Both the position numbers and the translations under genes were made by a program. Below are positions 7,238 to 53,404 of a stretch of DNA of 64,000 nt, piece by piece. How positions within the stretch are numbered: the stretch's first letter is position 1; each line of letters starts with the position of its first letter. The notes below the pieces were generated by a model, which was not told the origin of the DNA, did not search any database, and saw only the letters and a program-made list of their open reading frames with translations. Origin of the DNA: a bacterium (GTDB lineage Bacteria; UBP6; UBA1177); contig JAFYIZ010000012.1 of NCBI GenBank assembly GCA_017538365.1, forward strand, positions 60,920-124,919, given 5' to 3'.

Positions 7238-7451
7238 ACTTCATTTCGAATAAATCTTACTGGAATTGACAGATGTTTACACCTCAAAAGCCTTAAAATT
7301 TCTCGCAAGACTTCTTAGCGGTTTCCGCCTCGTTGCTTGGGATTTTCACAAGTAAAACATGACTTTTTAAGTTGTTTTTTAAGAAAAACTAAAGATAATC
7401 TCACGGCGTTTTGTAACGATAGGGTTAAACCAAAAATTTGAGGGGCAAAAC

Positions 7452-10951: not shown

Positions 10952-10975
10952 TATTTTTGATTTGGGATAAATACC

Positions 10976-11803: not shown

Positions 11804-11829
11804 AACACAAGCGATAACGGAGGCACACC

Positions 11830-26100: not shown

Positions 26101-29100
26101 AAGTGTCGCAGTGTTTACCGTAACCTTCGTCTTTCAAATTACCGTTTACACAGTCGACATTGACAGGACTGCCGCCCGACAACTGAATTTTTCTGCATTT
26201 GTCCGGGTTGTTCGGGTCCTGAATCCAGCCCTCAGCCGTACACTTGTTGACCTTGTCGGCAAAATTCGTGTAGCACTTGAGCGTGGAACCTTCCGTAATC
26301 AGGTAACCTTCAGACGGACATTCCCTTTTGCAGTAATATTCCGGATCAGTTCCGCCTTCTCCGCCTGTGTGACCGAGGGTGTATCCGGTATTACACGTCT
26401 GGCACTTGCCGTTAAAGTATTCTCCGGAAGAGCAACTGTAGCAGTGATATTCCCCGTCATACCAGACAAGGGAACCGTTCTTGCACTTGTAGCATTTTCC
26501 GTCTGATCCTACATAATTGTAACCGTCCGGGCAGATTTTCTCCGGATCTTTCCACTGTGCCGCACTCGCAACCGATCCGTCCGGATTGGTTGCTGTCGCA
26601 TAGTAAAAATTCGAATCAGGTATCGCCCCGATCCATTCGATGAGGTTACCTTCATCATCGAAGACATATTTGTTTACCGTTGCACAGCATGTACCCTCTT
26701 GCGCGTTTTTATTCTTTTGCATACGGCACAGCGGATATTTTGTTGTTCCGGTAGTTCTGACTCTTTTATCAACCCAATAAGTGCCCCATTGCTGAATATC
26801 ACCTTCATAAATATATTTGTAGCAGTTTGAATATTCACACCTTCCGTCATCTTCTTCCAATGTTCTCAACGGCGAAGTCGGGCATCTCTTGTCTGCACTG
26901 TAATAATTGTTTGAAGTCGGATTCTTCTCAACGACATCGTCATAAACATTGTATCCGACTTCGTCGTTGCTCAGGCATCTTCCGTCAGACTGCTCGGTGT
27001 AGCCGGCAGGACATCCCGGTGAAACGATGCCTTCGTTGCAGCCGACTTCCCTGCCGACACATTTCTGTTCATCAGCAGGTTTACATTCCGTGGAAGTGCT
27101 ATACTTGTAACACTTGTTGTCTGCTTCCAGCACGTAACCAGACTTACATGTACAGCAGTATTTAAATGTAAAATTTGCACTACTCAGTTCATTTTTGTAT
27201 GTCCACACATAACCGTCTGGACAATAATACCTATATTTGAGAAGATGACCTTCATAGTAGGATTCGGATACAGCTTTTCTGCATTGCTGATCAGGAGTAT
27301 TGGGACCGTCTGCAATCCCTGTAGTAATCGTGAGGGTATCGTCGCATACACTGCCGTTGTAATAGCATTTTCCCCAGTAATCGGATTCATCCTGATTCAG
27401 AACCGTTCCAGTTGAAGAAACTTTTTTCTGGAGCTCAGAATAATTCGTGCTGCAAACCGGTGGCTGACACTGTATCGCCGCACCTTTGAATCTGCAGAAA
27501 TCACCTCCGGCAATATCGTCGTAGTTGCTTTGCGGAGAAGGACAGATACGTTCAGGACATTTAAGAACGTTGCCTTCACTGCCGCCGACAGAGTATTCAC
27601 GGCACTTGTTGATAGCTTTCTGCCAGCTGTCAACCCACTCGCCCGTATCGGCGAACTGCAGCTGCGTCGCATTATCGGTAACAACTTCATCGCCGCCGAA
27701 CTTGGTTATCTTGAACCTCGTTTTGACGTCTCCGCTCTCTGTGTAATAAGAATAAGTGAGGGTATGACCGTCCGGATTGCAGTCTGAATCAGAAATATAG
27801 ACGCTTATCAAATCCGGTCCGAAAGTACCTTCATCATCGTCGTAATCGTCGGAATTGGCGAAATATGCGAGCTGACCGGTTCCCTGAGCAAGAGTTTTGC
27901 CGCCGCAGCCGTTGCCCTGCCTAATCGTGATGATTGAAGTTGAACTGTTTGACTTGAAAAGGTATTTAGAGCCTCTTTTCAAAGAAAAAGAAGCATATTT
28001 TTTCGAATCAAGATCGATGTGACCACCATCTCCAAAATTATCAGAGCTTTCGTCATCGGAATCGACGATTTCCGCACCGGACTGCATTCCTTCGCAACCC
28101 TGACAGTCATAGCGCTGCCAGTGAAGAGGATATGTGTAAATATAGGACGCAACAACACACGGTGAATCGGCCTGTGCCGGGTTACATGAAGACGATGCAA
28201 CAACCGGGAAACCGTCATCATCAGTAACGACCGTTTTGGAGCCGTCGCCGTTTACTGTCGCCTGATATGTTCCGACAGTCGTGTCGAAACAGCTGAGCCA
28301 GTTGTTGTCACCGGTAACGGGGTTTTTCTGCGGAGCACACTGATAGCAGTTGTACTCGCTGAAAAGAAGCGTTACTTTGCCGTTAAAGTTTGACTGCCAC
28401 TCAAGAACGGTCTGTTTTGTTCCGACAGGGCAGTAAGTATTACCGTTTTCGATGTATGAAACTTCGGAATCATCGCCGTAAGCAAGGAAATCGCCGCATG
28501 CGTCTTCTTCGCCGGCGTTGTTGACTGTGCCTTTGAAAAGAGTGAGCTGAGTATCGTGAATCGCAGATTTGCATGTCGACCATCTGTAAATCTGGTTTTC
28601 CTTGACCTCGAAAGTGATATAGCTTCCGGGTTTGATCCAGCTGTCGAGATCGGCATCAGTGTAATTGGCAGCACCGAACTCCTGAATTGCGGTCCATGAA
28701 GGAGCCGTGGCAACATTGTCTGCCTTCGCCGCATTGCCGCCGGAGAGTTTGAAATCACTGGAAGCACCGCAGACATCGCAGTGTTCCGATGAAGTCCTGC
28801 GCCATTTTACGGTCGTGGTCTGGTTGCCTGTTGTTTTCTGGCACTCCTTGAATTCACCGGTATATGCACCACCGGCTGTTTTCTGAGCTTCGTAGTTCGT
28901 GACAAGAAGAACTACGCTTCCCGTGAAAGTCGCCTTCCATTCAAGCTGCGACTGGTTTCTGTAACCGTCGGAATTGCTGTATGCCAGGAAATTAGCGGTA
29001 GTCGAGCATGCATTACCATCAATAAGAGTAAGCTCTGTATCGAAAGGAAGCAGACAGTAGCCGTCAACACAGCGGAGACCTGTGTCGGATGACAACTCGT

Positions 29101-29446: not shown

Positions 29447-29460
29447 TTTTCCCTCCACCG

Positions 29461-30234: not shown

Positions 30235-30651
30235 TCAATTATTTTCACATATTGAAGAATGTTCTGTGTTGGAAACCCTGCATTTGACATTGTACGTGGA
30301 TTCAGTACAGCCTGTTCCCTGATTTGTGAAACAGACATAAGCAAAAGCCTGGTATGTTGCCGCGCCGCCTGAGCCTTCTCCTTCGAATTTTATAAGATAA
30401 TGCTTATTGCCTGCACCGCCGAACTCAACACCGTAATACTTCGTCAAAACCGTCTTATCCTTAGTGTACTGGCGGTATGTGTTGAAATAATCTTCTTCGG
30501 CTGCGGCAAGAGTCATCAGCTGTTCTTCAGCCTCGACTCTCTTTGCGCGGTTTGTGTAACCGTTGTAAAGAGGAATCGCTACAGCAGCCAGAACACCAAT
30601 GATTGCAACAACTATCATAAGCTCAATAAGCGTGAAACCTTTTTTTCTCAT
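30235..30651 (-). CDS. Type IV pilin (major-pilin-like prepilin)
   Basis: MRKKG|[22 protein letters not shown] prepilin leader with Glu at +5. C-terminal Cys pairs. Start taken at the internal ATG with an RBS. Confidence 0.75.
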
Positions 30652-30742
30652 TTGAATCTCCAACAAAACAACCTTTCTATTATAATGTTTTCTCCATAAA
30701 ATCAAACATTTTTTTACCTCCGGATTGACCGGACACCGTCAT

Positions 30743-31205: not shown

Positions 31206-32006
31206 CTACTTCTCCCGGCCTACAGGCGTACCTTTACCGTTGTCGAACTTATTCTTATTCTGTTTTCCGCTTTTCTTCTTGTAGAAATCGTTCAGGTTCA
31301 CATCTTCAAGAGAACCGTCTTCGGATTCGTGTCCGATATAGATGGCCTTCGTCATCGAAACCGTCATGCCGGCTTTCACAATATCGGGAATCCTGTATTC
31401 ACGCGCCCATTCACTTGTATTGAGTTCGTCAAAGTTGTTGAAAAAACGACCTGTTTTGAAGGTCAGCTTGTCGTTGGAAGGGTTGATTATGAAAACTGCG
31501 GCAAGCCACGAATTCTGCATGAGTTCCTGAGCCATCGGCAGAGAAATGTAGTAGTCAAGCGACTGCTTTTTCAAAGATTCCATCGTCGCTTCAGGGAGTT
31601 TGAAATCTTCGATATTGTTGCGGAAAAGATAGTAAAGCGGAAGGTATTTCATGTAGGTTGAAACATTGTCGTCGAAAATCTTCAGAATGTTGTCGATGTA
31701 GAAATTGAGTCTCATTTTTCCGTTGTTAACGCTTGCCGCGCGGAGAGCGTTTGCCATTCCGTGAGCCCTGAAATCGGTATCGCGGTTGAAAGTATTGCTG
31801 AGAGCCATGATTCTGTCCTCGGTGGCACGGGTTTCATAGGCCGTGTTCTCAAAAATGATGGAAAACGGGGTGATTTCGACAACCTGACCAACCATAACGA
31901 TATAGGAGTATTCAGAATACGAGTTGCCATCGCCGACCGTTCTTTCGACTGCGAAAAGCATCGAAGTCAGCACAATAATGAAAGAGATTGCAAAAATTTT
32001 TCTCAT
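31206..32006 (-). CDS. Hypothetical secreted protein encoded within the pilus operon
   Basis: Signal peptide MRKIFAISFIIVLTSMLFA. No recognisable domain. 1-bp gap to the downstream pilin gene. Confidence 0.5.
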   Translation of the reverse strand: MRKIFAISFIIVLTSMLFAVERTVGDGNSYSEYSYIVMVGQVVEITPFSIIFENTAYETRATEDRIMALSNTFNRDTDFRAHGMANALRAASVNNGKMRLNFYIDNILKIFDDNVSTYMKYLPLYYLFRNNIEDFKLPEATMESLKKQSLDYYISLPMAQELMQNSWLAAVFIINPSNDKLTFKTGRFFNNFDELNTSEWAREYRIPDIVKAGMTVSMTKAIYIGHESEDGSLEDVNLNDFYKKKSGKQNKNKFDNGKGTPVGREK

Positions 32007-32015: not shown

Positions 32016-35000
32016 CTAGTAAAGTTCATACCACTTGATAATATAAGTTTTGTTCGTCTTAACAGTGAGCTGAGTCTTTCTGAAAATATCGGCTCCGGCA
32101 CCGAATGTAAGATCGTAACCTTTGTCTGAAGCGATTACTCCGACTCCGGTTGCAAGGCTTATGTTCTTTGCTTTTGACGTATCGGTTATACACTGGTTGT
32201 CTTCATCAGCCGATACACTCCATTCACCGTTGCTTCCCGTCATGTTCGTATCGGTGAAATACTGGTTGCCGTCGAGGATGTATCTTTCGTAGTTGCTGCT
32301 TGATCCGAAAGATCTGCACTCGGTAAGCTTCATCGGGGTAAAGGTGTTCCACGCAATGGTGTAGCTGTTGGAATTTTCGGCTTTGCCGCCGTAGATATCG
32401 TAAACAACAAGAGGTTCAGTAATGCCCTTTTCACCGCCGTCCCTGTTGAATACGACTCGCCATCCGTGTTTGCCCTCAATGATCGTGTTCTGTTGATCGT
32501 GAGCGTTGCCTCGACCGTTGAGCTGGTATTCACCCAAATATACGGTATCGGAATCAAATTCATCGTAAGCGCCGCCTTTCTTGTCGTAGAAAACCGTCAT
32601 TGCCTCAGCACTTCCGACATATCTCGGGTTAGCCGCGTTTCCTGTAACGATAGGAACAGGAATAAGCCAATCCTCCACACTTGTGTCGTCAACAGATCTC
32701 TTTACAGGATTATATCTTTCAAGCGGCGGGAAGAAGTTCGACGAAACGTAACTCTTACTCGTGATAGCCCACGGAACCGACTTGATAGCCTCGCTCGTAC
32801 CGCCGTTTCTTTCAGTGTAGACGACCTTTGCAGTCCAATCGGACGGGCTGGCAGAGGTGACATCGACTCTGAAAACAGTTCCTGAAAGATCGTTGAAATA
32901 AACATATTCAGTGTCAACTGCTGCCTTTCCTGCCGTATTGACTACAAACGGAACCGATGTGAACGAAGTTACGAGCCACGATTTCGTAAAGGTGGTCATT
33001 TTCGTTGTAGGCGTATTCATATCGAAAATAGCCGCCTCTTCGAATTTACCTTTGGTTTTGTTCAGCTTGTAGATCAAGAACTTGTTGCCGTCAAGCTCGC
33101 TTACAGTGCAGGAGATGTTGTTGTCGGTATCCGACGAAGTCAAAGCTGTCGGATCGTGACACGTAGCATCGTAACCGCCGGGAACTGCAAGGTAATATTC
33201 CAGATCGTTGGCAAAAGAACAGGTTCCAGAGCACTTTCTGAATACTGCCGCCTTTCCGAAACTGAGACCGCCGTCAATATTGATATTCTGGATAAATTTC
33301 GGCTCGTCCTTGTCGGAAACATCGATAACGGTGTAACCTTTAGCGCCTCGTCTGTAGCCGAAAATAAGGTATGCCTTTTCGCCGCCGTTTATGATTCCGT
33401 CGTGGCTCTGGTCAATGTGGAGCAGTGTGATCGGACCGTCAACTGTAGCATTGAAAAAGATGTTGGATTCGGTTTCCTTGAAGCTCGTGATTGACGGAAT
33501 CGCGAGAGTCGGCATGTATGCATATACTTCATTACCGCTGCCGTCAAACGCATGGAGCATTCCGTCATTTGCTCCGGCATAGATTCTCGTGGTGGTATCG
33601 TTTTCATAAAGAACAGCTACCGGTTTAGAGTGGACAATTGCACCGAGAAGCAGCGGACGAAGCGTAAGTTTAGTGCTTTTGTTGAAGTCGATATTGAACG
33701 GATCGTCAACAGAGAAAGTCTTCTTCGTAGTGGTATAGCGGACATTCGTGCTCAAACCGTCCTTATCGTCATCAAAGCTGTCGTAACCTGCCATATAGTC
33801 AAGGATCTGTCCTATCTGAGCAGAAGTTATCGAAGGATCTGCTTCACGGAATTTGTTATAGAGATAGTTGCCTGAAGAGATATCTGCGCTTTTAAGCTCA
33901 GAAATGCTGCCTTTTGTGTTCGTGTCATAGTAAATTTTTCTCTTTGTCTTTTTATAGCACTCGCCAGCCGAGCTGCATGTATCTGCAGATTCTATCAACT
34001 GTCTGAGTTTGTATGCCGCACCGCCGACCATAAGTTTTTTGTACTGTTCAACGCTTGTGGAATCATCGCCGACGAAATCCGTGCCGCTGTCGGTTGCAAA
34101 ACAGTCGCTGGAACTGAAGGTCTGTTTCTTCCATTCGCCGCAGTTGGCATCGGTATCGTCCGTGATAGGACAATCAGTACCGCCGTCAACATTGTATTTT
34201 TTGAGGTTTCCGAACCAGAAACGGCTTACCGAACCGTCTATCGGAACGGTTCCCGCTACGTAAGCATCCGGACCGCGGTATTTTTCCTCGACATCGTAAG
34301 GCTGGACAAGAGAAGAAGTCCAGTGAGGACGGCCTACGACGACATCGGAATCTTTCGATTTCGATACAAACGCCGCAAAAAGACTCGTTAAATCGTTGAA
34401 GTTTCCGCCTTCCTCCGATCCGCCGCCGGCAGTCGATGCTGTAAGACCGAAATATCTGCCCTTAATGTTGTCAAATCCTTTCGTCTGGGTAGCGACACGC
34501 TCCATAAAGCTCTCGTCCATGAAACTTCCTGTTGAACCGCCTGTTCCAGAAGCTTTCAAAGTATCGTACATCGCCGAAAGCCCCCATTCGCCGATTGCTA
34601 TGGAGTGGACGCGGTCGATTCTCGGGATGTTCGCTCCGGTGAGGTGCACTTCCGACGGATCGCAGCCTTTTGCATTCTGACTGACAAGCAGGTTCCGGCA
34701 TTCTCTGGTACCCCAGAAAGAATGGCTCGTGCTGTTTACAAACGCCGCAACATTCAAAAGCGAACTGTTGTACCAGTCCTCTGTTTCATAAGGTTCGAGC
34801 TGGCTCGGCTGCGTATCGACAGGCGTTACGCACGGGTTTTCAGGATCGGCGGTAGTATCGCTGAACTTCTTGCAGGTTATTTTGTCTAATGAGTTGTCAG
34901 ACGATACAGTTCCCATGCCGTTCAATTTGTCGTTGTGGTCGAACTGCGGCTGACCGCCTGAAATAATAATAGCTTCATTGGTATTGCATTCAGGCGAACC

Positions 35001-38000
35001 GTTTTCATAAGGTGAATCGTATTTTTTGGTTTTGTATTCCTGATCGTGGAGAGCATACATTCCGCCAAGATAACGCCAAGCATCGTAAAGAGTCTCACCA
35101 AGCGTGGAACCGCCAAGCGCCTTCAAACCTTTGAGCTGTTTTTGGAATTCTCCAATATTAGTAACATTGGTTAAATCACTCGCCGGCATAAGAAGTTTTC
35201 CGCCCTCTCCTTTGGGTATTTTCATCCAGAATGTAGGATAATCGCAGTCGTTGCTGTCCTGACTCAAATCTATGGAACAGCATCCCGATGTGCAGGACGA
35301 GTCGCAATCGGTACCGGTCCAGCCCCAGAGAACATCATAGACGCATGTCGGAGTTCTCGCAGCCGCTTCGTTCGTCGTAAAGAGAGAGGTCAGAGAATCT
35401 CTGAGATATTTGGAACCGTTTTCGGAATAAAGCAGACTGAAATCTCTATACCATCCGTCATAAGGTGAATCGCTGTTGGTATCTTTAAATACTTTGTACG
35501 GAACAAGATTGTAATATCCTGGAGTTGAGCCCTCGTTTATGTGACCGTTTACAATTTCAGCCTGATATCCGCTTGACTCGGTTCGTCCTCCGTCACTTGT
35601 TGTAGCGTATTGATAAGTACTGACAGCACAGATACAGTGGTTATTTTTACATGGTCCCGGTTTTGTAGGCGGAGTCTTGCTTACTTTCGACGACATATTG
35701 ACGCCTTCCGGGGTCTGGTGATGGTAGTACAAGCCCTGCTCGCTGTTGATACAACGGCAGCAGTCCTCGATGTTATTGACACTGTCCAGAGTACACTCAC
35801 CTGCTGCACAACTGCCTATACCGTTAAATTCTTTTGTATCAGTCATATAGAAGAAAGACTGGCATTTCCACGGATCGTCATAAACCTGACCGGCCCTGCA
35901 CAACCATGAGCAGGCAACTTTTGTCGGAGTAAACCACTGGTCTCTCGCCAGAACCTCTCTTTCCGCAGTTCTCGCTTCACAGTATTCGACTTTCGAACCC
36001 TGACGTCCCTGGTTAAGATAGGTCGGTGCCTGAGAAGCACTCGGACACGAACTTCCGTTGATAACCGCAACTTCTCTGTTATAGAAAGAAGCCTTGCACT
36101 CGTATTCAAAAACCTTTTTGCTGCCGGAAGATGTCTGATACTGGAATACCTGATACAATTCTTTCTCCGGATCAAAAATAGTTTTCGGATTGACTTGCTG
36201 CTTTTTGTATCCTTCGTCAAAGTAATATTTCAGAGTGAACGAAGTATTTGCATCACCCAGTTTGCAGCCGTTACGCGTAACAGTCGCTACCGCACGCATA
36301 TGGTAACCTGACTCGCTGCATCCGCTGAGAGTTCCCGATATTGACGGACAGTCTGATGCATTGCACGTAGCCGAACCGAGCGTAACCGAAGGCTTACCCG
36401 TTTCTCCGATACAACCGTAGTAAACAGTAACTTTTATCTCGTCCAAAGGCGTATAGTCAATCGAACCTTCAACATTGACCGTTATTCCGATGCCGGTACA
36501 GGTATCGCTGTCGCTGTCCGATCCGCAGTAAACGTCAGCTCCCGGATCTTCCAGAATATCAACAACGTCAGATTCTTTAGTTCCAGTAGTCTCTCCCAAA
36601 ACGCTGCCACTGTCACATTTCTGGCATATATCTCCGTTCAAATCGGTATAGTTCGACATATTGCCTTCTTCCGCACATTCCAATTCCTGACAGCAGTGGT
36701 TCGGATCCTGGTCGAATTCGCTGTAGTGATCGAGAACGCATTCGTAACTCGGGTTGCAGCAGCTCGGATCGGTGTTGGGCCTGCCGAGATATTCGCAAGT
36801 CTCTTCAAAAGAAGAGCACTTGCCGATTTCATTGCCTCCGATCGTTCCCTGATCCGTTTTGCAGTTGATATCGTTGTCTCTGCAGTGCGGGTTTGCACAT
36901 TCGGTTGCCTTGCAGCATATTTTTTTCATATCGAAAGAGAAGCTGGCAAGAGTCTTAGGATCAGGATTTAGAGTCGAACCGCTGTAGCTCGAGCATTTCG
37001 TTTCTTCAAAAGAACCTGTTCCATCGCCGTTGGACTTCCACATCATACATTTGTCGCAGTCTGACGAAGCTGTCTTTGTCAAATTTGTATAGGATGTTCC
37101 AACGTCACAGCCGGCAGCTGAATCGTCCATTCCGCAGGAATACTGCTCGTCGGAATAGATGGAAAAACCTTCTGCACCGACATCCTCTATATTAAAGTTC
37201 TCACATTTAGACGCATTGAATGCTTTGGGATCGTCGTCATCATGAGCAGATTCACCATTTGACGGCGTTTTCAGTTCGGACGCCCAGAGTGAATCTATAG
37301 CTTCCTGAATAGCCTCAAGCTCCTTCTCACGGACCGTACCAGTGAGATTCGACCGGGACGGATCAAAAGCAACGAAACAGATATTCTTCTCGTCTATTAC
37401 CGGCACAGGCGGATCGTCTGTTGTCATAACAGGCTTTCCGTCCTCATCAAACCGCTGTTCATCATACGAACTCTTTGGTCTGTAGGTAGTTTTATGACAC
37501 CTATTCTCTCCGCGGGTTCTCGGCTGTACAGAGAAAGAGTGAACGTTGCCGAGGATTATTTTCAAAGCATCAAGAGATGTAGAGTATTTCCAGTTGAGCC
37601 AGAGTCCGCTTACAGGGTTAGCCTGGAGACTTTTGCCGTTCGTCATCTTGTCGCTGCCGTCAGTCAGGCAGTCCCAGTCGCTTCTGTCGGCGATAAAACC
37701 ACCGCTTGATTCCTTGAAACTTTCGAACTGTTCATCCGTCATACCAAGTTTTTCTTTGTTGTACTGGTCTGCTGAAGAAGTTCCTTCAAGAACGTCGCCG
37801 TGAGTATCGGCAGTCCAGTCGTAGAAACAGATGTCTTCTTTATATGTTTTATTCGGATTCCACGGACCGACATATTTTTTTGCCGCATTGCTGGTTGCTG
37901 AAACCGTTGTGGAGCGGTCCGGTTCCGGATAGTAGCTGTCTTTGATCGTTTTGCAGTGAATAGAGAGTTTGTCTTTTACATTACTGATTTTCGAACATTT

Positions 38001-38345
38001 GGTACGTACGTCTCCGCAGTTCAAATCGACTGAACACATCGCGTTGCTTTCAACGTTACGGCACTGCTGGTAGGCGTTGTTGCAAAGCGCAAGCGCTTTC
38101 TCCAAGTTTGCCTCACCGTCCTTGCAGGTATCGGTATAGTCGCTGTACGCGAAAGAATTCATACTGTCTGACGAATCAACGATGAAAATCTGGTGGGGCA
38201 TTTTCTTCGCACTTGTTATCATCGCCGCGACATCATCCTTGAGAGAGTCTGAAATCGTAACACCTTCTGCTGTGAAACAAAAACACAACAGAAAATTAAC
38301 AAAAAAGGCTACAAAAAGTTTGTTTGAAAATGTGCTTTTTCTCAT
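32016..38345 (-). CDS. PilY1/PilC-like type IV pilus tip adhesin, giant variant (2109 aa), with an N-terminal vWA domain and a large Cys-rich insertion
   Basis: vWA MIDAS motif IFIVDSSDSM. C-terminal beta-propeller signature IYAGANDGMLHAFDGSGNEVYAYMP. DDDKDG Ca-site-like motif. Located after the pilV/W/X-like genes, as in the fimU-pilVWXY1E arrangement. Confidence 0.75.
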   Translation of the reverse strand: MRKSTFSNKLFVAFFVNFLLCFCFTAEGVTISDSLKDDVAAMITSAKKMPHQIFIVDSSDSMNSFAYSDYTDTCKDGEANLEKALALCNNAYQQCRNVESNAMCSVDLNCGDVRTKCSKISNVKDKLSIHCKTIKDSYYPEPDRSTTVSATSNAAKKYVGPWNPNKTYKEDICFYDWTADTHGDVLEGTSSADQYNKEKLGMTDEQFESFKESSGGFIADRSDWDCLTDGSDKMTNGKSLQANPVSGLWLNWKYSTSLDALKIILGNVHSFSVQPRTRGENRCHKTTYRPKSSYDEQRFDEDGKPVMTTDDPPVPVIDEKNICFVAFDPSRSNLTGTVREKELEAIQEAIDSLWASELKTPSNGESAHDDDDPKAFNASKCENFNIEDVGAEGFSIYSDEQYSCGMDDSAAGCDVGTSYTNLTKTASSDCDKCMMWKSNGDGTGSFEETKCSSYSGSTLNPDPKTLASFSFDMKKICCKATECANPHCRDNDINCKTDQGTIGGNEIGKCSSFEETCEYLGRPNTDPSCCNPSYECVLDHYSEFDQDPNHCCQELECAEEGNMSNYTDLNGDICQKCDSGSVLGETTGTKESDVVDILEDPGADVYCGSDSDSDTCTGIGITVNVEGSIDYTPLDEIKVTVYYGCIGETGKPSVTLGSATCNASDCPSISGTLSGCSESGYHMRAVATVTRNGCKLGDANTSFTLKYYFDEGYKKQQVNPKTIFDPEKELYQVFQYQTSSGSKKVFEYECKASFYNREVAVINGSSCPSASQAPTYLNQGRQGSKVEYCEARTAEREVLARDQWFTPTKVACSWLCRAGQVYDDPWKCQSFFYMTDTKEFNGIGSCAAGECTLDSVNNIEDCCRCINSEQGLYYHHQTPEGVNMSSKVSKTPPTKPGPCKNNHCICAVSTYQYATTSDGGRTESSGYQAEIVNGHINEGSTPGYYNLVPYKVFKDTNSDSPYDGWYRDFSLLYSENGSKYLRDSLTSLFTTNEAAARTPTCVYDVLWGWTGTDCDSSCTSGCCSIDLSQDSNDCDYPTFWMKIPKGEGGKLLMPASDLTNVTNIGEFQKQLKGLKALGGSTLGETLYDAWRYLGGMYALHDQEYKTKKYDSPYENGSPECNTNEAIIISGGQPQFDHNDKLNGMGTVSSDNSLDKITCKKFSDTTADPENPCVTPVDTQPSQLEPYETEDWYNSSLLNVAAFVNSTSHSFWGTRECRNLLVSQNAKGCDPSEVHLTGANIPRIDRVHSIAIGEWGLSAMYDTLKASGTGGSTGSFMDESFMERVATQTKGFDNIKGRYFGLTASTAGGGSEEGGNFNDLTSLFAAFVSKSKDSDVVVGRPHWTSSLVQPYDVEEKYRGPDAYVAGTVPIDGSVSRFWFGNLKKYNVDGGTDCPITDDTDANCGEWKKQTFSSSDCFATDSGTDFVGDDSTSVEQYKKLMVGGAAYKLRQLIESADTCSSAGECYKKTKRKIYYDTNTKGSISELKSADISSGNYLYNKFREADPSITSAQIGQILDYMAGYDSFDDDKDGLSTNVRYTTTKKTFSVDDPFNIDFNKSTKLTLRPLLLGAIVHSKPVAVLYENDTTTRIYAGANDGMLHAFDGSGNEVYAYMPTLAIPSITSFKETESNIFFNATVDGPITLLHIDQSHDGIINGGEKAYLIFGYRRGAKGYTVIDVSDKDEPKFIQNINIDGGLSFGKAAVFRKCSGTCSFANDLEYYLAVPGGYDATCHDPTALTSSDTDNNISCTVSELDGNKFLIYKLNKTKGKFEEAAIFDMNTPTTKMTTFTKSWLVTSFTSVPFVVNTAGKAAVDTEYVYFNDLSGTVFRVDVTSASPSDWTAKVVYTERNGGTSEAIKSVPWAITSKSYVSSNFFPPLERYNPVKRSVDDTSVEDWLIPVPIVTGNAANPRYVGSAEAMTVFYDKKGGAYDEFDSDTVYLGEYQLNGRGNAHDQQNTIIEGKHGWRVVFNRDGGEKGITEPLVVYDIYGGKAENSNSYTIAWNTFTPMKLTECRSFGSSSNYERYILDGNQYFTDTNMTGSNGEWSVSADEDNQCITDTSKAKNISLATGVGVIASDKGYDLTFGAGADIFRKTQLTVKTNKTYIIKWYELY

Positions 38346-38356: not shown

Positions 38357-38983
38357 CTATTCCCTGTTTTCGCCGTCTCTTGAAAAACAGCTGATCAAAC
38401 CTATCGTCTTCATTTTTCCGAGCGAGAAGTTCGGCTTGTTCGCGATTTTGTTGCTGTCATCCCTGAAAGTTACGTAATTGCTCGATCCGACATAAATAAC
38501 CTCTCTGACATCGACCGTGATGTCGTAGCAGGCGTTCTTGTCTCTGCCGTAAACTGCCGTTGCATCCGGATTCAGCCCGTAAACCTGTGCGGTTTCGCTT
38601 GTCGTCAGCCTTCTCGCAACAGCTCTATAAGCAAATTGGATATCACTGGCTATTGCTGCCGTAGAAATATCACGCGGATAGTATCTGAAAGTTCCGTCAT
38701 TCGATGTCGTGCTGCCGCCCAAACCGTTACCTATAGAATAGGAGTCTTCGAACTGGAAAGTCGAATCAATAAGAGAACGCATCTCGCCGTTCACGATATT
38801 CACGGCTGAATATGCGTAGGCAAGCAGCCTTCTGTCCTGAAGATCCTTGCCTGTCGTATGAGCTGTTTCCGAAAGTCTCGCCATGGTCGCAAGCGCAATG
38901 ATCGAAAGGCTCATAGTCATCAGAACGCTGATGAAAAGTGCGACGCCGCAGTGCTTTTTAACAATAAAATCAAACATTTGCAC
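38357..38983 (-). CDS. PilX-like minor pilin / pilus assembly protein
   Basis: Hydrophobic N-terminus VALFISVLMTMSLSIIALATMARL. Position between the pilW-like and pilY1-like genes. Confidence 0.5.
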   Translation of the reverse strand: MQMFDFIVKKHCGVALFISVLMTMSLSIIALATMARLSETAHTTGKDLQDRRLLAYAYSAVNIVNGEMRSLIDSTFQFEDSYSIGNGLGGSTTSNDGTFRYYPRDISTAAIASDIQFAYRAVARRLTTSETAQVYGLNPDATAVYGRDKNACYDITVDVREVIYVGSSNYVTFRDDSNKIANKPNFSLGKMKTIGLISCFSRDGENRE

Positions 38984-38989
38984 CTCCAG

Positions 38990-40054
38990 CTAATTGCCTG
39001 ACTGATCTTTGAGATAACGGTAGTTCGAAAGATAAACAACCCTGCTGAAAACTGAAGCAGTGTAGTTCAAATCCTCCAAATCATAACAGTATTTATTAGT
39101 CGATCCCGTATCGGCACTGAAAATACAGTATCTCGGCAAAGTTCCGGCACCGCCGGGTTTTCCTTGGGTTATTCTTTCTTTTTTGGAAAGAAGAACAAAA
39201 CCGAACCTGATTGCAGTAATTTCTTTAATATGGTTTTTCGGATATTCAGTACCGTTCGGAAGCCATTTTCTGCATTTGTCGGTGCCACATTTCCACTCGG
39301 CAAGGAATTCTATTACAAACTTGGGCATTATATAAAAATTATCCGTTTTAGAGGATTTGTAGCTGAAATTTATCAGATTTCCTCCGCCGGTACCGTCTTC
39401 TTTCGTATAGTCAAGTGTGAGATAGTTGTCAGAGAGAGCCGGACTGTATTTTAACGTATAAATAAAATCCTCACCCGTAACAAGCGAACCTACAGGAAAA
39501 ACATCCTTGCACTCGTCACCGTCACTCCCAGGAGTACCGTTAAAACCATTGGTCTTCAAAGAAACGCCGTTATCCCCATATTCGATATCCGAAATAGAGG
39601 ATTCTCCATCGGCAGTCTTGAAAAAGCCGTTCTGGTTATGGAAATAGAGTTTGCTGATATTTGTATAAAACGACGCGCTGTTGAAAAGTGTGAATTCGCA
39701 GTTTGGATAAGTTTCCGAAACCGATGCAACTTTCGTGATCGGAGAACCGTAAGGTGAAAGATATACAAATGTTGTAGGAGATGTTTCCGTATTAATTTGA
39801 CGGAAAATACCAGTTCCGTCGTCTCTCAAATCGGTTTTCACACTGTTCAGACCTATCAGGCGGAAAGATTCTGAAAGAGTATCGAGCATCTGCTCGCCCA
39901 TCAGGTTTTCCGCGACCCGTATTGATGCTGAACGCTCTGTTTTGAGCGATGCCTCATACAATTTATAGAAAGAAGCAATAATGGTTATGGTTATAAAAAT
40001 GCTGACCATCAGCTCGATAATGGTAAAAGCCTTGAAAACACTAAATTTCTTCAT
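38990..40054 (-). CDS. PilW-like minor pilin (prepilin-type N-terminal domain)
   Basis: MKKFSVFKA|FTIIELMVSIFITITIIASF. 354 aa. Confidence 0.6.
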   Translation of the reverse strand: MKKFSVFKAFTIIELMVSIFITITIIASFYKLYEASLKTERSASIRVAENLMGEQMLDTLSESFRLIGLNSVKTDLRDDGTGIFRQINTETSPTTFVYLSPYGSPITKVASVSETYPNCEFTLFNSASFYTNISKLYFHNQNGFFKTADGESSISDIEYGDNGVSLKTNGFNGTPGSDGDECKDVFPVGSLVTGEDFIYTLKYSPALSDNYLTLDYTKEDGTGGGNLINFSYKSSKTDNFYIMPKFVIEFLAEWKCGTDKCRKWLPNGTEYPKNHIKEITAIRFGFVLLSKKERITQGKPGGAGTLPRYCIFSADTGSTNKYCYDLEDLNYTASVFSRVVYLSNYRYLKDQSGN

Positions 40055-40063
40055 GCCAGCCTC

Positions 40064-40600
40064 CTAATAAGCCCTGTTGGAGCGCACAAGCGGAATCGTC
40101 AGAGCGTTGCAGTTATCATCGAAACCTGCACTGCTGCTGTTAGTGCATGGATATTCACCGTGTCCCATTTTGGGCCAGTAAACGGAAACCTCGATCTGAT
40201 AAAGAGTCGAAAGATAAGTTCCCGGCTGCACATAAGTTCCTGTCGCCATTGAATAAGGCGCTATAACAATGTTTCTGTAAAATGCGTAACTTGCCGAACC
40301 GGTCATATAGAAAGGACTTATCCTGTAATTTGCTCCTAAATACTTGTCATTCTGCAGAGTGCTTTCCTGAAGATTGACAACGGAACCTGTTCCTGCCAGT
40401 TCTTTAAACGAATCATAGGACATCGAATTGAATTCCTCAACAAGGTTAAAAGCAAGCGCGTGGGCAAACTGAGCTGATTCGTTTTCAAATAGAACTGACA
40501 TCGAATGAGCATGAAACGCCATATAGCCGAGCATCGAAGTCGTGAAAATGAAAATCGAAACCATAACTTCTATCAGTGTAAAAGCTCTGTTTTTTCGCAT
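40064..40600 (-). CDS. PilV-like minor pilin
   Basis: MRKNRA|FTLIEVMVSIFIFTTSMLGYMAF. 178 aa. Confidence 0.6.
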   Translation of the reverse strand: MRKNRAFTLIEVMVSIFIFTTSMLGYMAFHAHSMSVLFENESAQFAHALAFNLVEEFNSMSYDSFKELAGTGSVVNLQESTLQNDKYLGANYRISPFYMTGSASYAFYRNIVIAPYSMATGTYVQPGTYLSTLYQIEVSVYWPKMGHGEYPCTNSSSAGFDDNCNALTIPLVRSNRAY

Positions 40601-40608
40601 ATTCCCTC

Positions 40609-41373
40609 CTACATATCAAGCAGCACTGCACTTGAACCGGCAAAATCGCTGTAATCGACCGAAGTTTTGTCGGAAAAAAGAGTACATATCGAATACTCGC
40701 CTCTCTGGTCTATATCGAGACGATACCAAATCGAATCATTGGAACCTGACGAAACTTTCGAACGGACAATGGCTGAAAAAACAATATTAGGAAGAGTATT
40801 TTTTGCAACTGCGCTACCGCACTTGCCATACTCAGAATCGGCACCACTAACGAAGTATCCGCCTTTAGTTTTTACCTTTCCGTTTGAATTGAAGTTCAGA
40901 AGATTACCGAAATTGGTCGTCGAAGCCGACACATCGGTACCATTGACCTTTTCTATCGTAATCGTGTTCAAGAGGTTGTTTTTTTTCAGCATGAGCGCGC
41001 TAGCATCCCATGTCGAAGTATCCATCGACTGCTTCTGATAAATCGCATACTCCGATTTTCTGAAGACCATTGCCGTCTGACGGCGGACACCCATGTAAAC
41101 AGGCATTGTAGCAGCACCTTCCGAATCGTCATCGACATTTACCGGAATATTGATGCTGTTGTTTCCGGTACCAACGACCGTGTAACCTGCAACCGATCTC
41201 GCCTTGGAAAAATCGGAAAGGAGCTCCATAACCGTCTGCAAACCGCGGTTTCTGGCATTCCAGACCTGAACCCTGGGAACCGAGACAGTTGCGATTATCG
41301 TCATAATTCCCAAAGCAATCATCAACTCAATCAGTGAAAAACCGTTTGTCTTTCTCACGTCAGCCTCCGTCAA
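40609..41373 (-). CDS. FimT/FimU (GspH-like) minor pilin
   Basis: NG|FSLIELMIALGIMTIIATVSVP prepilin motif. First gene of the minus-strand pilus string. Confidence 0.6.
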   Translation of the reverse strand: MTEADVRKTNGFSLIELMIALGIMTIIATVSVPRVQVWNARNRGLQTVMELLSDFSKARSVAGYTVVGTGNNSINIPVNVDDDSEGAATMPVYMGVRRQTAMVFRKSEYAIYQKQSMDTSTWDASALMLKKNNLLNTITIEKVNGTDVSASTTNFGNLLNFNSNGKVKTKGGYFVSGADSEYGKCGSAVAKNTLPNIVFSAIVRSKVSSGSNDSIWYRLDIDQRGEYSICTLFSDKTSVDYSDFAGSSAVLLDM

Positions 41374-41573: not shown

Positions 41574-44168
41574 TTATCTTTTTTCCTGAATTTCCTTCCG
41601 GTATTCGCTTGGAGTTTTTCCGGTCCATTTCTTGAAAATCGGATTGAATGTGCTCTTCGATTTGAAACCGGCTTCGTAAAGAAGTTCAAGAACGCTTTTA
41701 TCGTCGAATTTGGGATCGCGCATCATCGCAACGACATCTTCCAATCGGTATGAATTGACGAAACTATAAAAACTCTGACCGAGGTATCCGTTCAAAACAT
41801 AAGAAAGAGTATTTGCCGAAAGTTTCAGTTTTTTTGCAAGCATCGGAAGCGTAAGGTCAGGATTTTTATAAAGTTTTTCTTTTTCCATCAGATCAGCAGC
41901 CTCTTTCGCATAGACCGCCGCAATCTCGTCGTCAAGCTGATAACCTTCATACTTCTGCTTTTCTTCCGTCTCATCTACCACCGGATCAAAAAGATCCTGG
42001 TCTCCTTCCCCTCGCCACTCTGGAGAGGGGTCAGGGGTGAGGTCTTCTCCCCTCGCCGCACCGGAGAGGGGTTCGGGGTCAGGTTCTTCCTCACCTTGCC
42101 ACTCTGGAGAGGGGTCTGGGGTGAGGTCTTCTCCCCTCGCCGCACCGAAGAGGGGTTCGGAGTGAGGTCTGCGAGGTCTCTTAACCACAAAAACCGCAAT
42201 AAGCGCCGCCGAAACGGCCAAAATCACAAAAATCCAGGAATAATTTGATTTTTCTTCGTTTTTCACAATAATAGCTGCACTTTCTTCAGGTGCAACCGAA
42301 TCGAATCTGACAGATTTTCTTCCCTCTTTCTTTAAAACCGCAATTCCTTCGAGAGTCGGAAACCACAAATCGCCGTTTCTGCGCTTCAAAACCGAAGGCT
42401 GCACACCGCCAGTCGACTCAGGTCTGCGAATTCCGTCAGCAGCTCCTGAAAGATTGCAGAAAACCGATTCATTTTCAGCAGTTGCAGCTTTCAAAACAAG
42501 TGATTGAGGCAGAGAAAAAAGCCCTTTCGTACTTGAAAACCAGAGATTTCCGTCGTCATCCGGAACTATTCCCAGAACCGTGTCGCTGCACAAACCTTTC
42601 CTTGAATCGATGCGGAAAATTTTCTGATTTTTGTCAATCAGAATAAGCCCGCTGTTCATCGTGCCGAACAAAACATTTCCGTTTCCCGCAGGATAGACCG
42701 AAACAGGCATATCTGAGGCAAGTTCCCGATTTATTTCATGAAATTCATCATTTTCATCAAGCTGCCAAATTCCTTTTGAAGAGGCGAACCAAAGGTTTCC
42801 GGCATCATCTTCGGCAATGGAAGAGACAAAATCTGAATCGTCACCGAATTTGCGCAGAAGATGCCACCCTTTAGCCGTGTTCAGGTATATAGCTCCTCCC
42901 CCGCCGCCAGCCCACAGACGCGATTTTCTGTCGAGGAAAATGACACCGGCTGCGTTAACAGGGAGATTGTTTTCGCTTTTCATCTTCTTGAAAACATTGG
43001 GTTTTTCAGGCGAGAAAGAAATTATTCCGCTTGGAGTTCCGACAAGAATCCGGCCGTCTTCATTCTGGAAGAGTCCGCCGACAAAACGCCCGATATCCCC
43101 TTTTCTGTCACGGAGATATTTGAATCTGCCGTTTTCGTAATAAAAAAGACCGCCGCCGCGCGTTCCGGCCCAGACTCTGCCCGAATCATCTTCAAGAAGA
43201 GCATAGACTTTTTCCGAAAAAAGCCCCGATTCGCGCCCCAAAGTTATGAATTTTCCAGGATAAAACAGCTTTATTCCGCGGCTTCCGGCCAACCAGAGAA
43301 AATCGCCGTCAATCTTCACTTTGGCGACATTTTCGGAATCGCGGCACAACTCTCCGCAGGGTGTCACGACACCGTTTTCGGCAAAAAAGAGTTTTCCGCC
43401 GGCCGCAAAAGCTATTGTTTTTGAATTGAAATCAAGCGAAACAACTGCATCACGAGTTTGAATCTGAAATAATTTCGAGCACTTGCCGTTTCCAACCTGA
43501 AAAATTGCCCCGTCTTTAGTGCCGACAAGAATTCTGCCGTTTCCTGCAGCTCCGCTTTTGATTTCAGAGCGGTTCGCGGAACATAAATTTTCAGAAAAAG
43601 TGCCGTCCGAATAAGATCTGACAGATCCGTCTGAAAAACCTGCGAAAAGTGTCTGACCGTCTGAAAAAAGTAGCGAAACAGATGCGTTTTCCGTTTGCAA
43701 CCTGCTTATTTTATTATCTTTTATCAAATAAATTCCTTTTTCATCCGCTGCAAAAAGAGTACAGTCATCAAGAGATTCGACATCAAAAAAAGCATGTGAT
43801 TTTGCAACCGGTTTCGAAGAGATTCCCGAACCTGATATTTCAGAAATTCCTGTGGCGGTAGCAACGAAAACTTTGCCGTTACAACCTGACAAATCATTAA
43901 TTTTATTGTTCAAAATCGACGGTTTCGTATTTGTTGCAAAAAATTTCGAAGAGTTTGAATCGATTCTCGCAAGACCTTCCGCACTTCCAGCCCAGACCAG
44001 ACCGGATTCATCGCGGTAAAACGAAGTTACATTGCCGTGCGGCAGATCGGCTGGCGCATTCCAGGAACGTGAGGCGAAATGGGAAAAATCGGAAAACGAA
44101 AATTCATCCGCCGAAATTTCCGACGGAATCAAAAACAAAAATATGAAGCATAAAAAAAGCACAAACAT
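41574..44168 (-). CDS. Periplasmic ligand-binding beta-propeller (two-component-regulator-propeller / Y_Y_Y-like) sensor fused through one TM helix to an AraC-family HTH DNA-binding domain
   Basis: N-terminal signal. Repeated WAG/WFA propeller blades. TM helix YSWIFVILAVSAALIAVFVV. C-terminal AraC HTH (…SYRLEDVVAMM…GFKSKSTFNPIFKKWTGKTPSEYRK). Confidence 0.75.
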   Translation of the reverse strand: MFVLFLCFIFLFLIPSEISADEFSFSDFSHFASRSWNAPADLPHGNVTSFYRDESGLVWAGSAEGLARIDSNSSKFFATNTKPSILNNKINDLSGCNGKVFVATATGISEISGSGISSKPVAKSHAFFDVESLDDCTLFAADEKGIYLIKDNKISRLQTENASVSLLFSDGQTLFAGFSDGSVRSYSDGTFSENLCSANRSEIKSGAAGNGRILVGTKDGAIFQVGNGKCSKLFQIQTRDAVVSLDFNSKTIAFAAGGKLFFAENGVVTPCGELCRDSENVAKVKIDGDFLWLAGSRGIKLFYPGKFITLGRESGLFSEKVYALLEDDSGRVWAGTRGGGLFYYENGRFKYLRDRKGDIGRFVGGLFQNEDGRILVGTPSGIISFSPEKPNVFKKMKSENNLPVNAAGVIFLDRKSRLWAGGGGGAIYLNTAKGWHLLRKFGDDSDFVSSIAEDDAGNLWFASSKGIWQLDENDEFHEINRELASDMPVSVYPAGNGNVLFGTMNSGLILIDKNQKIFRIDSRKGLCSDTVLGIVPDDDGNLWFSSTKGLFSLPQSLVLKAATAENESVFCNLSGAADGIRRPESTGGVQPSVLKRRNGDLWFPTLEGIAVLKKEGRKSVRFDSVAPEESAAIIVKNEEKSNYSWIFVILAVSAALIAVFVVKRPRRPHSEPLFGAARGEDLTPDPSPEWQGEEEPDPEPLSGAARGEDLTPDPSPEWRGEGDQDLFDPVVDETEEKQKYEGYQLDDEIAAVYAKEAADLMEKEKLYKNPDLTLPMLAKKLKLSANTLSYVLNGYLGQSFYSFVNSYRLEDVVAMMRDPKFDDKSVLELLYEAGFKSKSTFNPIFKKWTGKTPSEYRKEIQEKR
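42005..42170. repeat. In-frame tandem duplication (2 x ~80 bp) within the regulator gene. Each unit contains two cccctcgcc…ggagagggg hairpin-capable inverted repeats.
   Basis: Direct DNA repeat. Encodes PLFGAARGEDLTPDPSPEWQGEE / PLSGAARGEDLTPDPSPEWRGEG in the linker between the TM helix and the AraC domain. Confidence 0.7.
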
Positions 44169-49594: not shown

Positions 49595-49604
49595 GAGATT
49601 TACC

Positions 49605-53389: not shown

Positions 53390-53404
53390 TCAGTTCACCT
53401 CGTA

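What the first reader, a model, noticed from the sequence alone, without database searches (positions are those of the whole stretch)
32016..38345. Giant (2109 aa) PilY1-like adhesin with an about 800-aa cysteine-dense insertion between the vWA domain and the beta-propeller
The N-terminal DxSxS MIDAS motif (IVDSSDSM) and the C-terminal AGANDGMLHAFDG propeller signature bracket a long region rich in paired cysteines (CCKATECANPHC…CCNPSYEC…CCQELEC…). Typical PilY1/PilC proteins are 1000-1600 aa. The extra module may be a novel host- or substrate-binding domain.
Basis: partly seen in the sequence, partly recalled or inferred. Interest (0 to 1): 0.55.

Follow-up and report, generated by a model that had tools for sequence, protein, structure and literature searches.

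The report
Giant cysteine-rich PilY1-type pilus tip protein
This is a real 2109-residue pilus tip protein of the PilY1 type from an uncultured rumen bacterium, and its adhesion (vWA) domain is interrupted by a roughly 765-residue cysteine-rich module found only in this small protein family, which makes it an extreme variant of a known kind of protein.

Summary
The ORF is real. It lies on the minus strand (38345 to 32016), encodes 2109 aa with 77 Cys, and every quoted motif is present. It is not a fusion artefact. 52 full-length homologs (1892-2186 aa) are collinear, and the identical protein sits on 7 contigs. It follows four minor-pilin genes, and two more pilin genes follow it. Its C-terminus folds as a PilY1 beta-propeller (Foldseek to 3hx6, E 1.5e-14). 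The PilY1-like call is therefore right.

The placement is wrong. The Cys-dense module is not between the vWA domain and the propeller. It interrupts the vWA domain. The DxSxS strand is at residues 49-61. The MIDAS-Thr/betaD block is at 1066-1136, and hhalign matches it to the GGT...TDGD block of a shorter PilY1-like protein.

The module is family-restricted. An exhaustive profile search of 1.84 billion proteins found only this family. The confident AF2 model (pLDDT 82) has no significant match in PDB or BFVD. 45 Cys columns are conserved, and variable Cys are gained and lost in pairs, which suggests disulfides.

The most likely function is a disulfide-stapled adhesive head at a type IV pilus tip; the ligand is unknown. 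Long, Cys-rich vWA-type PilY1 proteins are already described in Myxococcota, so this is a new variant of a known kind.

The parts
32016..38345 (-). Whole PilY1-like ORF, 2109 aa plus stop codon
38268..38345 (-). Residues 1-26: Sec-type signal peptide (MRKSTFSNKLFVAFFVNFLLCFCFTA; cleavage site inferred)
   Evidence: sequence; inference
38160..38201 (-). Residues 49-62: vWA strand betaA plus MIDAS DxSxS (D57 and S59 in 53/53, S61 in 41/53)
   Evidence: AF2 strand 49-56 with pLDDT about 90; conservation; matches NIMFLLDDSGSMN of a canonical PilY1
37608..38159 (-). Residues 63-246: insertion 1. Two long helices (68-101, 110-138) carry 6 invariant Cys (74, 88, 95, 110, 117, 131), followed by a mixed region. 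A canonical 1183-aa PilY1 has about 190 aa at the same position.
37542..37607 (-). Residues 247-268: putative vWA helix alpha1 (LWLNWKYSTSLDALKIIL; compare NYLNWKY of P0096 and FANWFTYY of P0098). Assigned by motif and secondary structure only.
   Evidence: pairwise alignment not significant
35241..37541 (-). Residues 269-1035: insertion 2, the Cys-dense family-specific module (about 765 aa, 7% Cys). Mostly beta between 423-764, mixed alpha/beta between 773-1001. Low-confidence loops at 501-508 and 1004-1030. Boundaries are approximate.
34341..35240 (-). Residues 1036-1335: C-terminal half of the vWA fold. It holds the betaB/betaC hairpin 1040-1056, alpha 1061-1072, GGST (T1081), alpha 1082-1094, betaD 1121-1129 ending in S-G-G instead of T-D-G, a Cys-containing loop 1137-1240, betaE 1245-1250, and a last helix 1319-1328.
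33714..34340 (-). Residues 1336-1544: neck between the vWA domain and the propeller (GRPHWTSS, WFGNLKKY, DYMAGYD motifs; collinear with PilY1-like P0094)
32055..33713 (-). Residues 1545-2097: PilY1-type beta-propeller (AGANDGMLHAFDG at 1590-1602)
32019..32054 (-). Residues 2098-2109: C-terminal tail ending in K-W-Y-E-L-Y (five of the six residues 53/53, L2108 51/53), with pLDDT below 50 in the monomer model
38357..41373 (-). Four upstream pilin-like genes in FimU/PilV/PilW/PilX order (254, 178, 354, 208 aa). Two have a prepilin N-methylation motif above threshold, the 354-aa one only a sub-threshold match (E 0.014), and the 208-aa one no hit.
   Evidence: conserved in L007 and L012
29461..32006 (-). 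Downstream genes of the same operon: conserved 266-aa secreted ORF without Cys, two pilins (153 and 156 aa), and a 252-aa Lcl_C-domain lipoprotein-like ORF
41574..44168 (-). Upstream Reg_prop plus AraC-HTH regulator, conserved at this position in related loci

Best explanation
The gene encodes the PilY1-type tip protein of a type IV pilus in an uncultured rumen bacterium of the UBP6/UBA1177 lineage. The C-terminal beta-propeller, with the neck and the invariant KWYELY tail, would dock onto the four minor pilins encoded just upstream. Together they would form the complex that primes pilus assembly and ends up at the tip. This step is inferred from what is established for P. aeruginosa and M. 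xanthus PilY1. The N-terminal 1335 residues are a vWA (Rossmann-type) scaffold interrupted at two points. About 185 aa follow the DxSxS loop, at a position that is also occupied in ordinary PilY1. About 765 aa lie between helix alpha1 and strand betaB, and this insertion is unique to the family. The two insertions carry 58 of the 77 cysteines. Most of these are conserved or are gained and lost in pairs, so they most likely form many disulfides. The disulfides would staple a helical hairpin and several beta-rich subdomains into a rigid head at the distal end of the pilus. That head is the most likely adhesive surface, and the cross-links would let it withstand retraction force. The ligand is unknown. 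The MIDAS site is non-canonical (D57, S59, S61 and T1081 are kept; the betaD Asp is Gly), and the propeller calcium switch motif is absent. Metal-dependent ligand binding and calcium control as in P. aeruginosa are therefore probably not conserved.
For: The propeller is shown by phmmer to 3hx6 (E 1.8e-8), by AF2 of 1036-2109 (pLDDT 84.4, pTM 0.81) and by Foldseek top hit 3hx6 (E 1.5e-14, TMt 0.55). The operon has four pilin-like genes upstream and two pilins downstream, and the order is conserved in L007 and L012. The split vWA rests on several results. The DxSxS strand is at 49-61. hhalign aligns 1066-1136 with ELQELIVGLKAEGGTGIVDTLYEA...NHIIVLTDGDATVN of P0094 (85.5%, E 5.7e-6) and with the equivalent block of P0096. 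BLAST is collinear from 1066 to 1874 with P0094. P0094, P0095 and P0097 have weak Pfam VWA_2 hits at their N-terminal DxSxS strand, and P0098 has one at 274-352, after a gap of about 200 aa from its DxSxS. Strands 1040-1056 are beta with pLDDT above 90 when the N-terminal part is modelled, but coil with lower pLDDT when it is left out. The module is family-restricted: hmmsearch of a 896-position profile against 1.84e9 representatives gave 24 hits, all same-family proteins or fragments. No close relative lacks it; scores drop from 1839 to 70 bits. No fold match reached E 1e-3 in PDB or BFVD. Disulfide evidence: 45 conserved Cys columns, and co-varying pairs 477/577, 846/865, 1158/1172, 1299/1314, 1457/1463, 1705/1709. 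Published work places the PilY1 vWA domain at the pilus tip and shows its cysteines matter for force response (PMC8806160).
Against: No Pfam, NCBIfam or PDB sequence model of vWA matches. This holds even for a spliced construct with the insertions removed and for a profile comparison with an integrin I domain. Foldseek found no vWA structure for the N-terminal model. I could not inspect model coordinates, so neither the pairing of betaA with the C-terminal half nor any disulfide is directly seen. The alpha1 assignment rests on a motif only. Cysteine co-occurrence is confounded by phylogeny, and many members have an odd Cys count. No pilus motor, secretin or prepilin peptidase gene is in the window. 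The rumen is anoxic and no Dsb-type gene was seen here. Adhesion and the ligand are pure inference.
Confidence: 0.7

Rival explanations
1. The Cys-rich region is an independent domain block placed after a short, degenerate N-terminal remnant. The protein then has no functional vWA fold. The DxSxS is a relic or a coincidence, and 1036-1335 is a different alpha/beta domain.
For: No vWA model matches by sequence or by Foldseek. The MIDAS Asp is missing in all 53 members.
Against: D57 and S59 are invariant and T1081 is present in 50/53. The 1066-1136 block is homologous to a GGT...TDGD block in P0094 and a ...SDGG block in P0096. Canonical PilY1 P0098 shows the same order, DxSxS, then about 190 aa, then GGGT...ILTDG. 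The secondary-structure order alpha-alpha-beta-alpha-beta-alpha-beta-alpha fits the second half of a vWA fold.
Confidence: 0.15
2. The cysteines bind metal (zinc knuckles or clusters) rather than forming disulfides, as might be expected for an exported protein of a strict anaerobe.
For: There are many short-spaced motifs: CC five times, CxxC three times, CxxxC four times. The habitat is the anoxic rumen. Many family members have odd Cys totals.
Against: Variable cysteines are gained and lost in pairs, often far apart in sequence, such as 477/577 and 846/865. There is no CxxCH motif. His is scarce (1.3%). Two neighbouring secreted proteins have 5.7% and 9.2% Cys with DUF4215 cysteine-rich repeats, which points to a general capacity for oxidative folding of exported proteins.
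Confidence: 0.1
3. The module is mainly a mechanosensor or regulator rather than the adhesive surface. In this view it transmits tension through disulfide-gated unfolding, as proposed for the P. aeruginosa PilY1 vWA domain.
For: In P. aeruginosa the vWA cysteines, Cys152 above all, control force-induced conformational change and c-di-GMP signalling (PMC8806160). Here the Cys enrichment is in the same domain.
Against: No signalling partner is evident in the window. The scale of about 950 inserted residues with beta-sandwich-like subdomains is more typical of binding heads. Nothing here separates sensing from binding.
Confidence: 0.05

Closest known systems
Pseudomonas aeruginosa PilY1 (1161-1163 aa; C-terminal domain structure 3hx6)
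   Same: Same C-terminal beta-propeller fold and signature. Same N-terminal DxSxS-type vWA region with an insertion after the DxSxS loop. Same position in a fimU-pilVWXY1E-like operon. Cysteines are enriched in the vWA region in both (7 of 11 in PA14, PMC8806160).
   Different: The protein here is almost twice as long. It has an extra insertion of about 765 aa between alpha1 and betaB, and 77 Cys instead of 11. The MIDAS Asp is replaced by Gly. The calcium motif Dx(D/N)xDGxxD of the propeller and the RGD motif are absent. Identity is only about 16-22%.
Myxobacterial vWFA-type PilY1 proteins (M. xanthus PilY1.3 and clades 1.5-1.7 of PMC13190605)
   Same: vWFA plus propeller architecture, increased length, and progressive cysteine enrichment (median up to 41 Cys, up to 20 predicted disulfides), read as stabilisation of extended extracellular domains.
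   Different: No sequence relationship of the inserted module to any myxobacterial protein was found in an exhaustive profile search. The Cys count here is 57-82 per protein. The lineage (UBP6 and relatives) and the habitat (rumen, sediments) differ.
Other giant PilY1-like proteins found here: P0096 (2343 aa, 58 Cys) and P0097 (2065 aa, Laminin_G_3 module)
   Same: The same design principle applies: a vWA scaffold carries a large inserted module upstream of the MIDAS-Thr/betaD block, followed by a neck and a propeller.
   Different: The inserted modules are unrelated. P0096 has a Cys-rich repeat array of about 1100 aa placed before alpha1. P0097 has a concanavalin-like lectin domain. Similarity to the family studied here is confined to the vWA C-terminal half and the propeller (46-70 bits).
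Neisseria and Kingella PilC1/PilC2
   Same: Tip-associated adhesins and assembly factors with the same propeller family (PF05567).
   Different: They are about 1000 aa long with non-vWA N-terminal domains, and they have a calcium motif 1 that is absent here (PMC13190605).

Membership tests
PilY1/PilC family (PF05567, T4P tip protein) | C-terminal modified beta-propeller homologous to P. aeruginosa PilY1 C-terminal domain | tested here: met
   phmmer to 3hx6 gives E 1.8e-8. The AF2 model has pLDDT 84.4. The Foldseek top hit is 3hx6, E 1.5e-14, prob 1.00, TMt 0.55 over 585 columns. The Pfam PF05567 hit on the window protein itself is below the gathering score (20.2 against 28.1 bits), but precomputed PF05567 hits exist for 12 family clusters.
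PilY1/PilC family (PF05567, T4P tip protein) | Encoded in a minor-pilin operon (four minor pilins upstream, PilE-like pilin downstream) | tested here: met
   Pilin-like ORFs of 254, 178, 354 and 208 aa lie upstream and pilins of 153 and 156 aa lie downstream. Four of the six pass the prepilin N-terminal models. The 354-aa ORF has only a sub-threshold N_methyl match, and the 208-aa ORF is assigned by position and its hydrophobic N-terminus only. The order is conserved in L007 and L012.
PilY1/PilC family (PF05567, T4P tip protein) | EF-hand-like calcium site in the propeller (motif 1, Dx(D/N)xDGxxD; D851-D859 in P. aeruginosa) | tested here: not met
   No motif 1 occurs in the protein, and it is present in only 3 of 53 family members. 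The equivalent site 1803-1811 reads N-T-x-G-K-A-A-V-D/N. The motif is not universal among accepted PilY1 proteins (PMC13190605), so this does not exclude membership.
PilY1/PilC family (PF05567, T4P tip protein) | Physical location at the pilus tip and requirement for pilus assembly | not testable with these tools
   This needs a cultured host or heterologous expression.
von Willebrand A (vWA) domain with MIDAS | Recognition by vWA sequence models (Pfam VWA, VWA_2 and others) | tested here: not met
   No hit for the full protein or for five spliced constructs at E up to 10. The PDB profile search gave no vWA chain.
von Willebrand A (vWA) domain with MIDAS | MIDAS residues DxSxS ... T ... D | tested here: inconclusive
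   D57 and S59 are 53/53, S61 is 41/53 and T1081 is 50/53. The betaD position is S1129-G1130-G1131 where relatives have T/S-D-G, so the Asp is absent in all 53 members. Invariant D1136 and N1138 nearby might substitute (inference).
von Willebrand A (vWA) domain with MIDAS | Rossmann-like alpha/beta fold with a central sheet that includes betaA and betaD | tested here: inconclusive

The most novel reading that the evidence does not exclude
Insertions 1 and 2 (about 950 residues in all) may form a multi-domain, disulfide-knotted head built from folds with no solved or described relatives. In this reading the head evolved once in the UBP6-related lineage as a new class of pilus-tip binding module. 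It would work together with the co-conserved giant (about 5000 aa) cysteine-rich secreted protein encoded at the end of the same operon, for example as its receptor or anchor.
Probability: 0.15. Interest if true: 0.6.

Novelty: new variant of a known kind. Interest (0 to 1): 0.35.

Why it matters
PilY1 proteins decide what a type IV pilus sticks to and how the cell senses a surface. This family shows how far the vWA scaffold can be loaded: about 950 inserted residues and roughly 60-80 cysteines, in an uncultured rumen lineage about which almost nothing is known functionally. If the head binds plant fibre or other microbes, it would mark a lineage-specific colonisation device. It is also a test case for disulfide-based mechanical reinforcement of pilus tips. 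The finding corrects the domain map and gives a name to a protein that NCBI lists as hypothetical. It does not overturn current understanding, because modular and cysteine-rich PilY1 N-termini are already documented.

Tried and rejected
- Assembly or fusion artefact: rejected. All homologs are collinear and the identical protein is on 7 contigs.
- Extra propeller blades in the insertion: rejected. There are no propeller hits among the listed top 50 PDB matches for the model of residues 45-1244, and the region has mixed helical and beta secondary structure.
- Known domain in the insertion: none found in Pfam or NCBIfam.
- Internal repeats in the insertion: none by self-BLAST.
- Similarity between the insertion and the neighbouring Cys-rich giant proteins: none.
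- Multihaem or CxxCH motifs: none.
- vWA detection with a spliced construct against Pfam and PDB, and against an integrin I domain: no hits.
- Pairwise alignment of the putative alpha1 helix to outsider proteins: not significant. Local hhalign with alternative alignments added nothing beyond the betaC-to-betaD block.
I used full-length database proteins instead.
- The weak Foldseek hits to jelly-roll capsid, lectin and CBM folds (E at least 0.005) show at most a generic beta-sandwich. I did not use them to assign function.
Full report
**Observation**

The ORF at 32016-38345 is real, but it is read on the minus strand (38345 down to 32016). It starts with ATG, has a GAGGGG ribosome-binding site upstream, and encodes 2109 aa.

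The protein has 77 cysteines (3.7%). Residues 361-1040 hold 48 of them (7.1%). The ordinary ORFs of the window average 1.1%.

**Not an artefact**

A search of 5.8 billion proteins returned 47 clusters of 1892-2186 aa, 43 of which cover at least 98% of the query. In a 34-sequence alignment every segment of the protein is present in every member.

The window protein is identical to NCBI MBR6421471.1, which is listed as 'hypothetical protein [bacterium]'. It is encoded on 7 contigs, one of them from a separate Logan assembly.

Genome hits are rumen and environmental MAGs labelled UBP6 (UBA1177, UBA1209). Some carry inconsistent labels such as Spirochaetales, Bacteroidales or Sumerlaeota.

**Identity of the protein**

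The gene sits in a tightly packed minus-strand operon. In order, the operon contains:
- a Reg_prop/AraC regulator;
- four pilin-like genes of 254, 178, 354 and 208 aa;
- this gene;
- a 266-aa secreted ORF;
- two pilins of 153 and 156 aa;
- an Lcl_C-domain ORF;
- a 5092-aa ORF.

The same order is found in related loci. This is the fimU-pilVWXY1E layout.

The C-terminal part matches the crystal structure of the P. aeruginosa PilY1 C-terminal domain by sequence (3hx6, E 1.8e-8). An AF2 model of residues 1036-2109 has pLDDT 84.4 and pTM 0.81. Its best PDB match is 3hx6 at Foldseek E 1.5e-14, probability 1.00, TM 0.55 over 585 columns, followed by generic propellers. Membership in the PilY1/PilC family is therefore supported.

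Two features known from P. aeruginosa are missing:
- The propeller calcium motif Dx(D/N)xDGxxD is absent. The equivalent site reads N-T-x-G-K-A-A-V-D/N (motif definition from PMC13190605).
- There is no RGD motif.

**Where the cysteine-rich region lies**

The evidence puts it inside the vWA domain.

The strand plus DxSxS motif is at residues 49-61, with D57 and S59 invariant.

The next recognisable vWA elements are about 1000 residues downstream. Profile comparison aligns IGEFQKQLKGLKALGGSTLGETLYDAWRY...NEAIIISGGQPQFD (1066-1136) with ELQELIVGLKAEGGTGIVDTLYEA...NHIIVLTDGDATVN of P0094. P0094 is the nearest protein outside the family and is 1444 aa long (85.5% probability, E 5.7e-6). The same block aligns with the equivalent block ending in IVLISDGG in the 2343-aa P0096.

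BLAST with P0094 stays collinear from residue 1066 through the neck into the propeller.

P0094, P0095 and P0097 have weak Pfam VWA_2 hits on their N-terminal DxSxS strand. P0098 has a weak VWA_2 hit at 274-352.

A canonical 1183-aa PilY1 (P0098) shows the order NIMFLLDDSGSMN, about 190 aa, FANWFTYYRR...VRVGIYG, GGGTPL, IILTDG. An insertion after the DxSxS loop is therefore normal for PilY1.

In the protein studied here that first insertion is residues 63-246. A second one of about 765 aa (about 269-1035) lies between the putative alpha1 helix (247-268, LWLNWKYSTSLDALKIIL) and the betaB/betaC hairpin (1040-1056).

The AF2 models give indirect structural support. In the model of residues 45-1244 (pLDDT 82.3, pTM 0.71), residues 1040-1056 are strands and the 1045-1144 block has pLDDT 92-97. 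In the model that starts at 1036 the same residues are coil and confidence is lower. This is what one expects if they pack against N-terminal elements.

**Caveats on the vWA assignment**

- No vWA sequence model matches, even when the insertions are spliced out.
- Foldseek found no vWA structure.
- The alpha1 assignment rests on a motif only.
- The MIDAS aspartate is replaced in all 53 members, which have S-G-G where relatives have T/S-D-G.

I put the nested-vWA reading at about 0.75-0.8.

**What the inserted module is**

A 896-position profile of residues 63-1050 was searched with HMMER against all 1.84 billion representative proteins. It found 24 proteins. All are full-length family members with the module at the same position, or fragments of such proteins.

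A full-length profile search shows the family is sharply isolated. Scores are 1839 bits or more, and the next best is 70 bits. No close relative lacks the module, and no other protein type carries it.

The AF2 model is confident. It shows:
- two long helices (68-101 and 110-138) that carry 6 invariant cysteines;
- a mainly beta region (423-764);
- a mixed region (773-1001);
- two low-confidence Cys-rich loops.

Foldseek against PDB and BFVD gave no hit at E of 1e-3 or better. The best hits are weak jelly-roll, lectin or CBM-like matches of about 170-200 columns. There are no propeller hits among the listed matches, no internal repeats, and no similarity to the neighbouring Cys-rich proteins.

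**The cysteines**

45 Cys columns are at least 95% conserved in 53 sequences. Among the variable columns, several pairs are gained and lost together: 477/577, 846/865, 1158/1172, 1299/1314, 1457/1463, 1705/1709 and 607/616.

This is the pattern expected for disulfide partners, although shared ancestry can inflate it. There is no CxxCH motif and histidine is scarce.

Two neighbouring secreted proteins have 5.7% and 9.2% Cys with DUF4215 repeats. The organism therefore seems to export many cysteine-rich proteins.

**Mechanism**

The shown steps are PilY1 family membership, the operon context, the position of the module relative to vWA motifs, its restriction to the family, and the conservation and pairing pattern of the cysteines.

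The inferred steps are as follows:
- The propeller, the neck and possibly the invariant KWYELY tail (disordered in the monomer model) dock on the four minor pilins and place the protein at the pilus tip. This follows what is known for P. aeruginosa and M. xanthus (PMC8806160, PMC13190605).
- The vWA scaffold presents the inserted, disulfide-stapled head as the distal adhesive surface.
- The cross-links protect the head against retraction forces.

The ligand is unknown. Binding to plant fibre or other cells in the rumen is speculation.

**Comparison with known proteins, and novelty**

PilY1 N-termini are known to be modular (vWFA, DUF4114). A 2026 survey describes long, cysteine-rich vWFA-type PilY1 clades in Myxococcota, with a median of up to 41 Cys and up to 20 predicted disulfides (PMC13190605). 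In P. aeruginosa PA14, 7 of 11 cysteines lie in the vWA domain and Cys152 tunes force response (PMC8806160).

I also found unrelated giant PilY1-like proteins of 2065 and 2343 aa with other modules loaded into the vWA region.

The present family is an extreme case, with 57-82 Cys and about 950 inserted residues. It is lineage-restricted and its module has no detectable relatives. This makes it a new variant of a known kind, of moderate interest.

Noticed in passing
window 14180-29458 (-); also L001, L003, L005, L007-L010, L012, L017 downstream of the pilY1-like gene: A 5092-aa secreted ORF with 290 Cys (5.7%), DUF4215 and a C-terminal Laminin_G_3 domain starts 2 nt after the Lcl_C ORF at the end of the same operon. 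In 9 of 10 related loci a Cys-rich ORF (4.9-6.7% Cys) of more than 2275 aa, still open at the locus end, starts about 2.4-2.6 kb downstream of the pilY1-like gene. It is therefore a conserved partner of the pilus tip operon.
   Followed up: partly
window 44414-49594 (+) and 49584-50906 (+): A 1726-aa ORF has 158 Cys (9.2%), DUF4215 cysteine-rich repeats and two Lcl_C domains. A 440-aa ORF with two Lcl_C domains follows it. Both are transcribed divergently from the Reg_prop/AraC regulator.
   Followed up: no
window 32019-32036 (-), residues 2104-2109: The C-terminal hexapeptide K-W-Y-E-L-Y is essentially invariant in 53 homologs that go down to 28% identity (five residues 53/53, L2108 51/53). 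The last 12 residues have pLDDT below 50 in the monomer model. It is a candidate strand for docking onto a minor pilin.
   Followed up: partly
window 34947-34961 (-), residues 1129-1133: The vWA betaD strand ends in S-G-G-Q-P in the whole family, where relatives have T/S-D-G. The MIDAS aspartate is thus lost, while D57, S59 and T1081 are kept. D1136 and N1138 just downstream are invariant.
   Followed up: yes
window 31206-32006 (-): A 266-aa ORF with a signal peptide, no cysteine and no Pfam or NCBIfam match lies between the pilY1-like gene and the pilE-like pilin. This is the position of pilY2 in Pseudomonas. It is conserved (271-276 aa) in L007 and L012.
   Followed up: partly
window about 5400-12300: A low-GC stretch (0.37-0.39 against about 0.46) carries a type I restriction-modification methylase and specificity subunit, a GIY-YIG/DUF4357 protein, DUF5131 and a GMT-wHTH protein. 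It is probably an acquired defence island.
   Followed up: no
window 51770-55029 (-): A cluster of a ParA/MinD-like ATPase fused to an HTH_25 domain, an ankyrin-repeat protein and a double-FHA protein lies next to the lgt gene.
   Followed up: no
L001-L023 record titles: MAGs that carry this family have inconsistent taxonomic labels: UBP6, 'uncultured Spirochaetales', Bacteroidales, Candidatus Sumerlaeota, or plain 'bacterium'. This suggests mislabelled bins of one poorly classified lineage.
   Followed up: no
window 30235-30705 (-): The listed TTG start of the 156-aa pilin gives an 18-residue extension before [11 protein letters not shown]. The real start is probably the internal ATG near 30651.
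   Followed up: no
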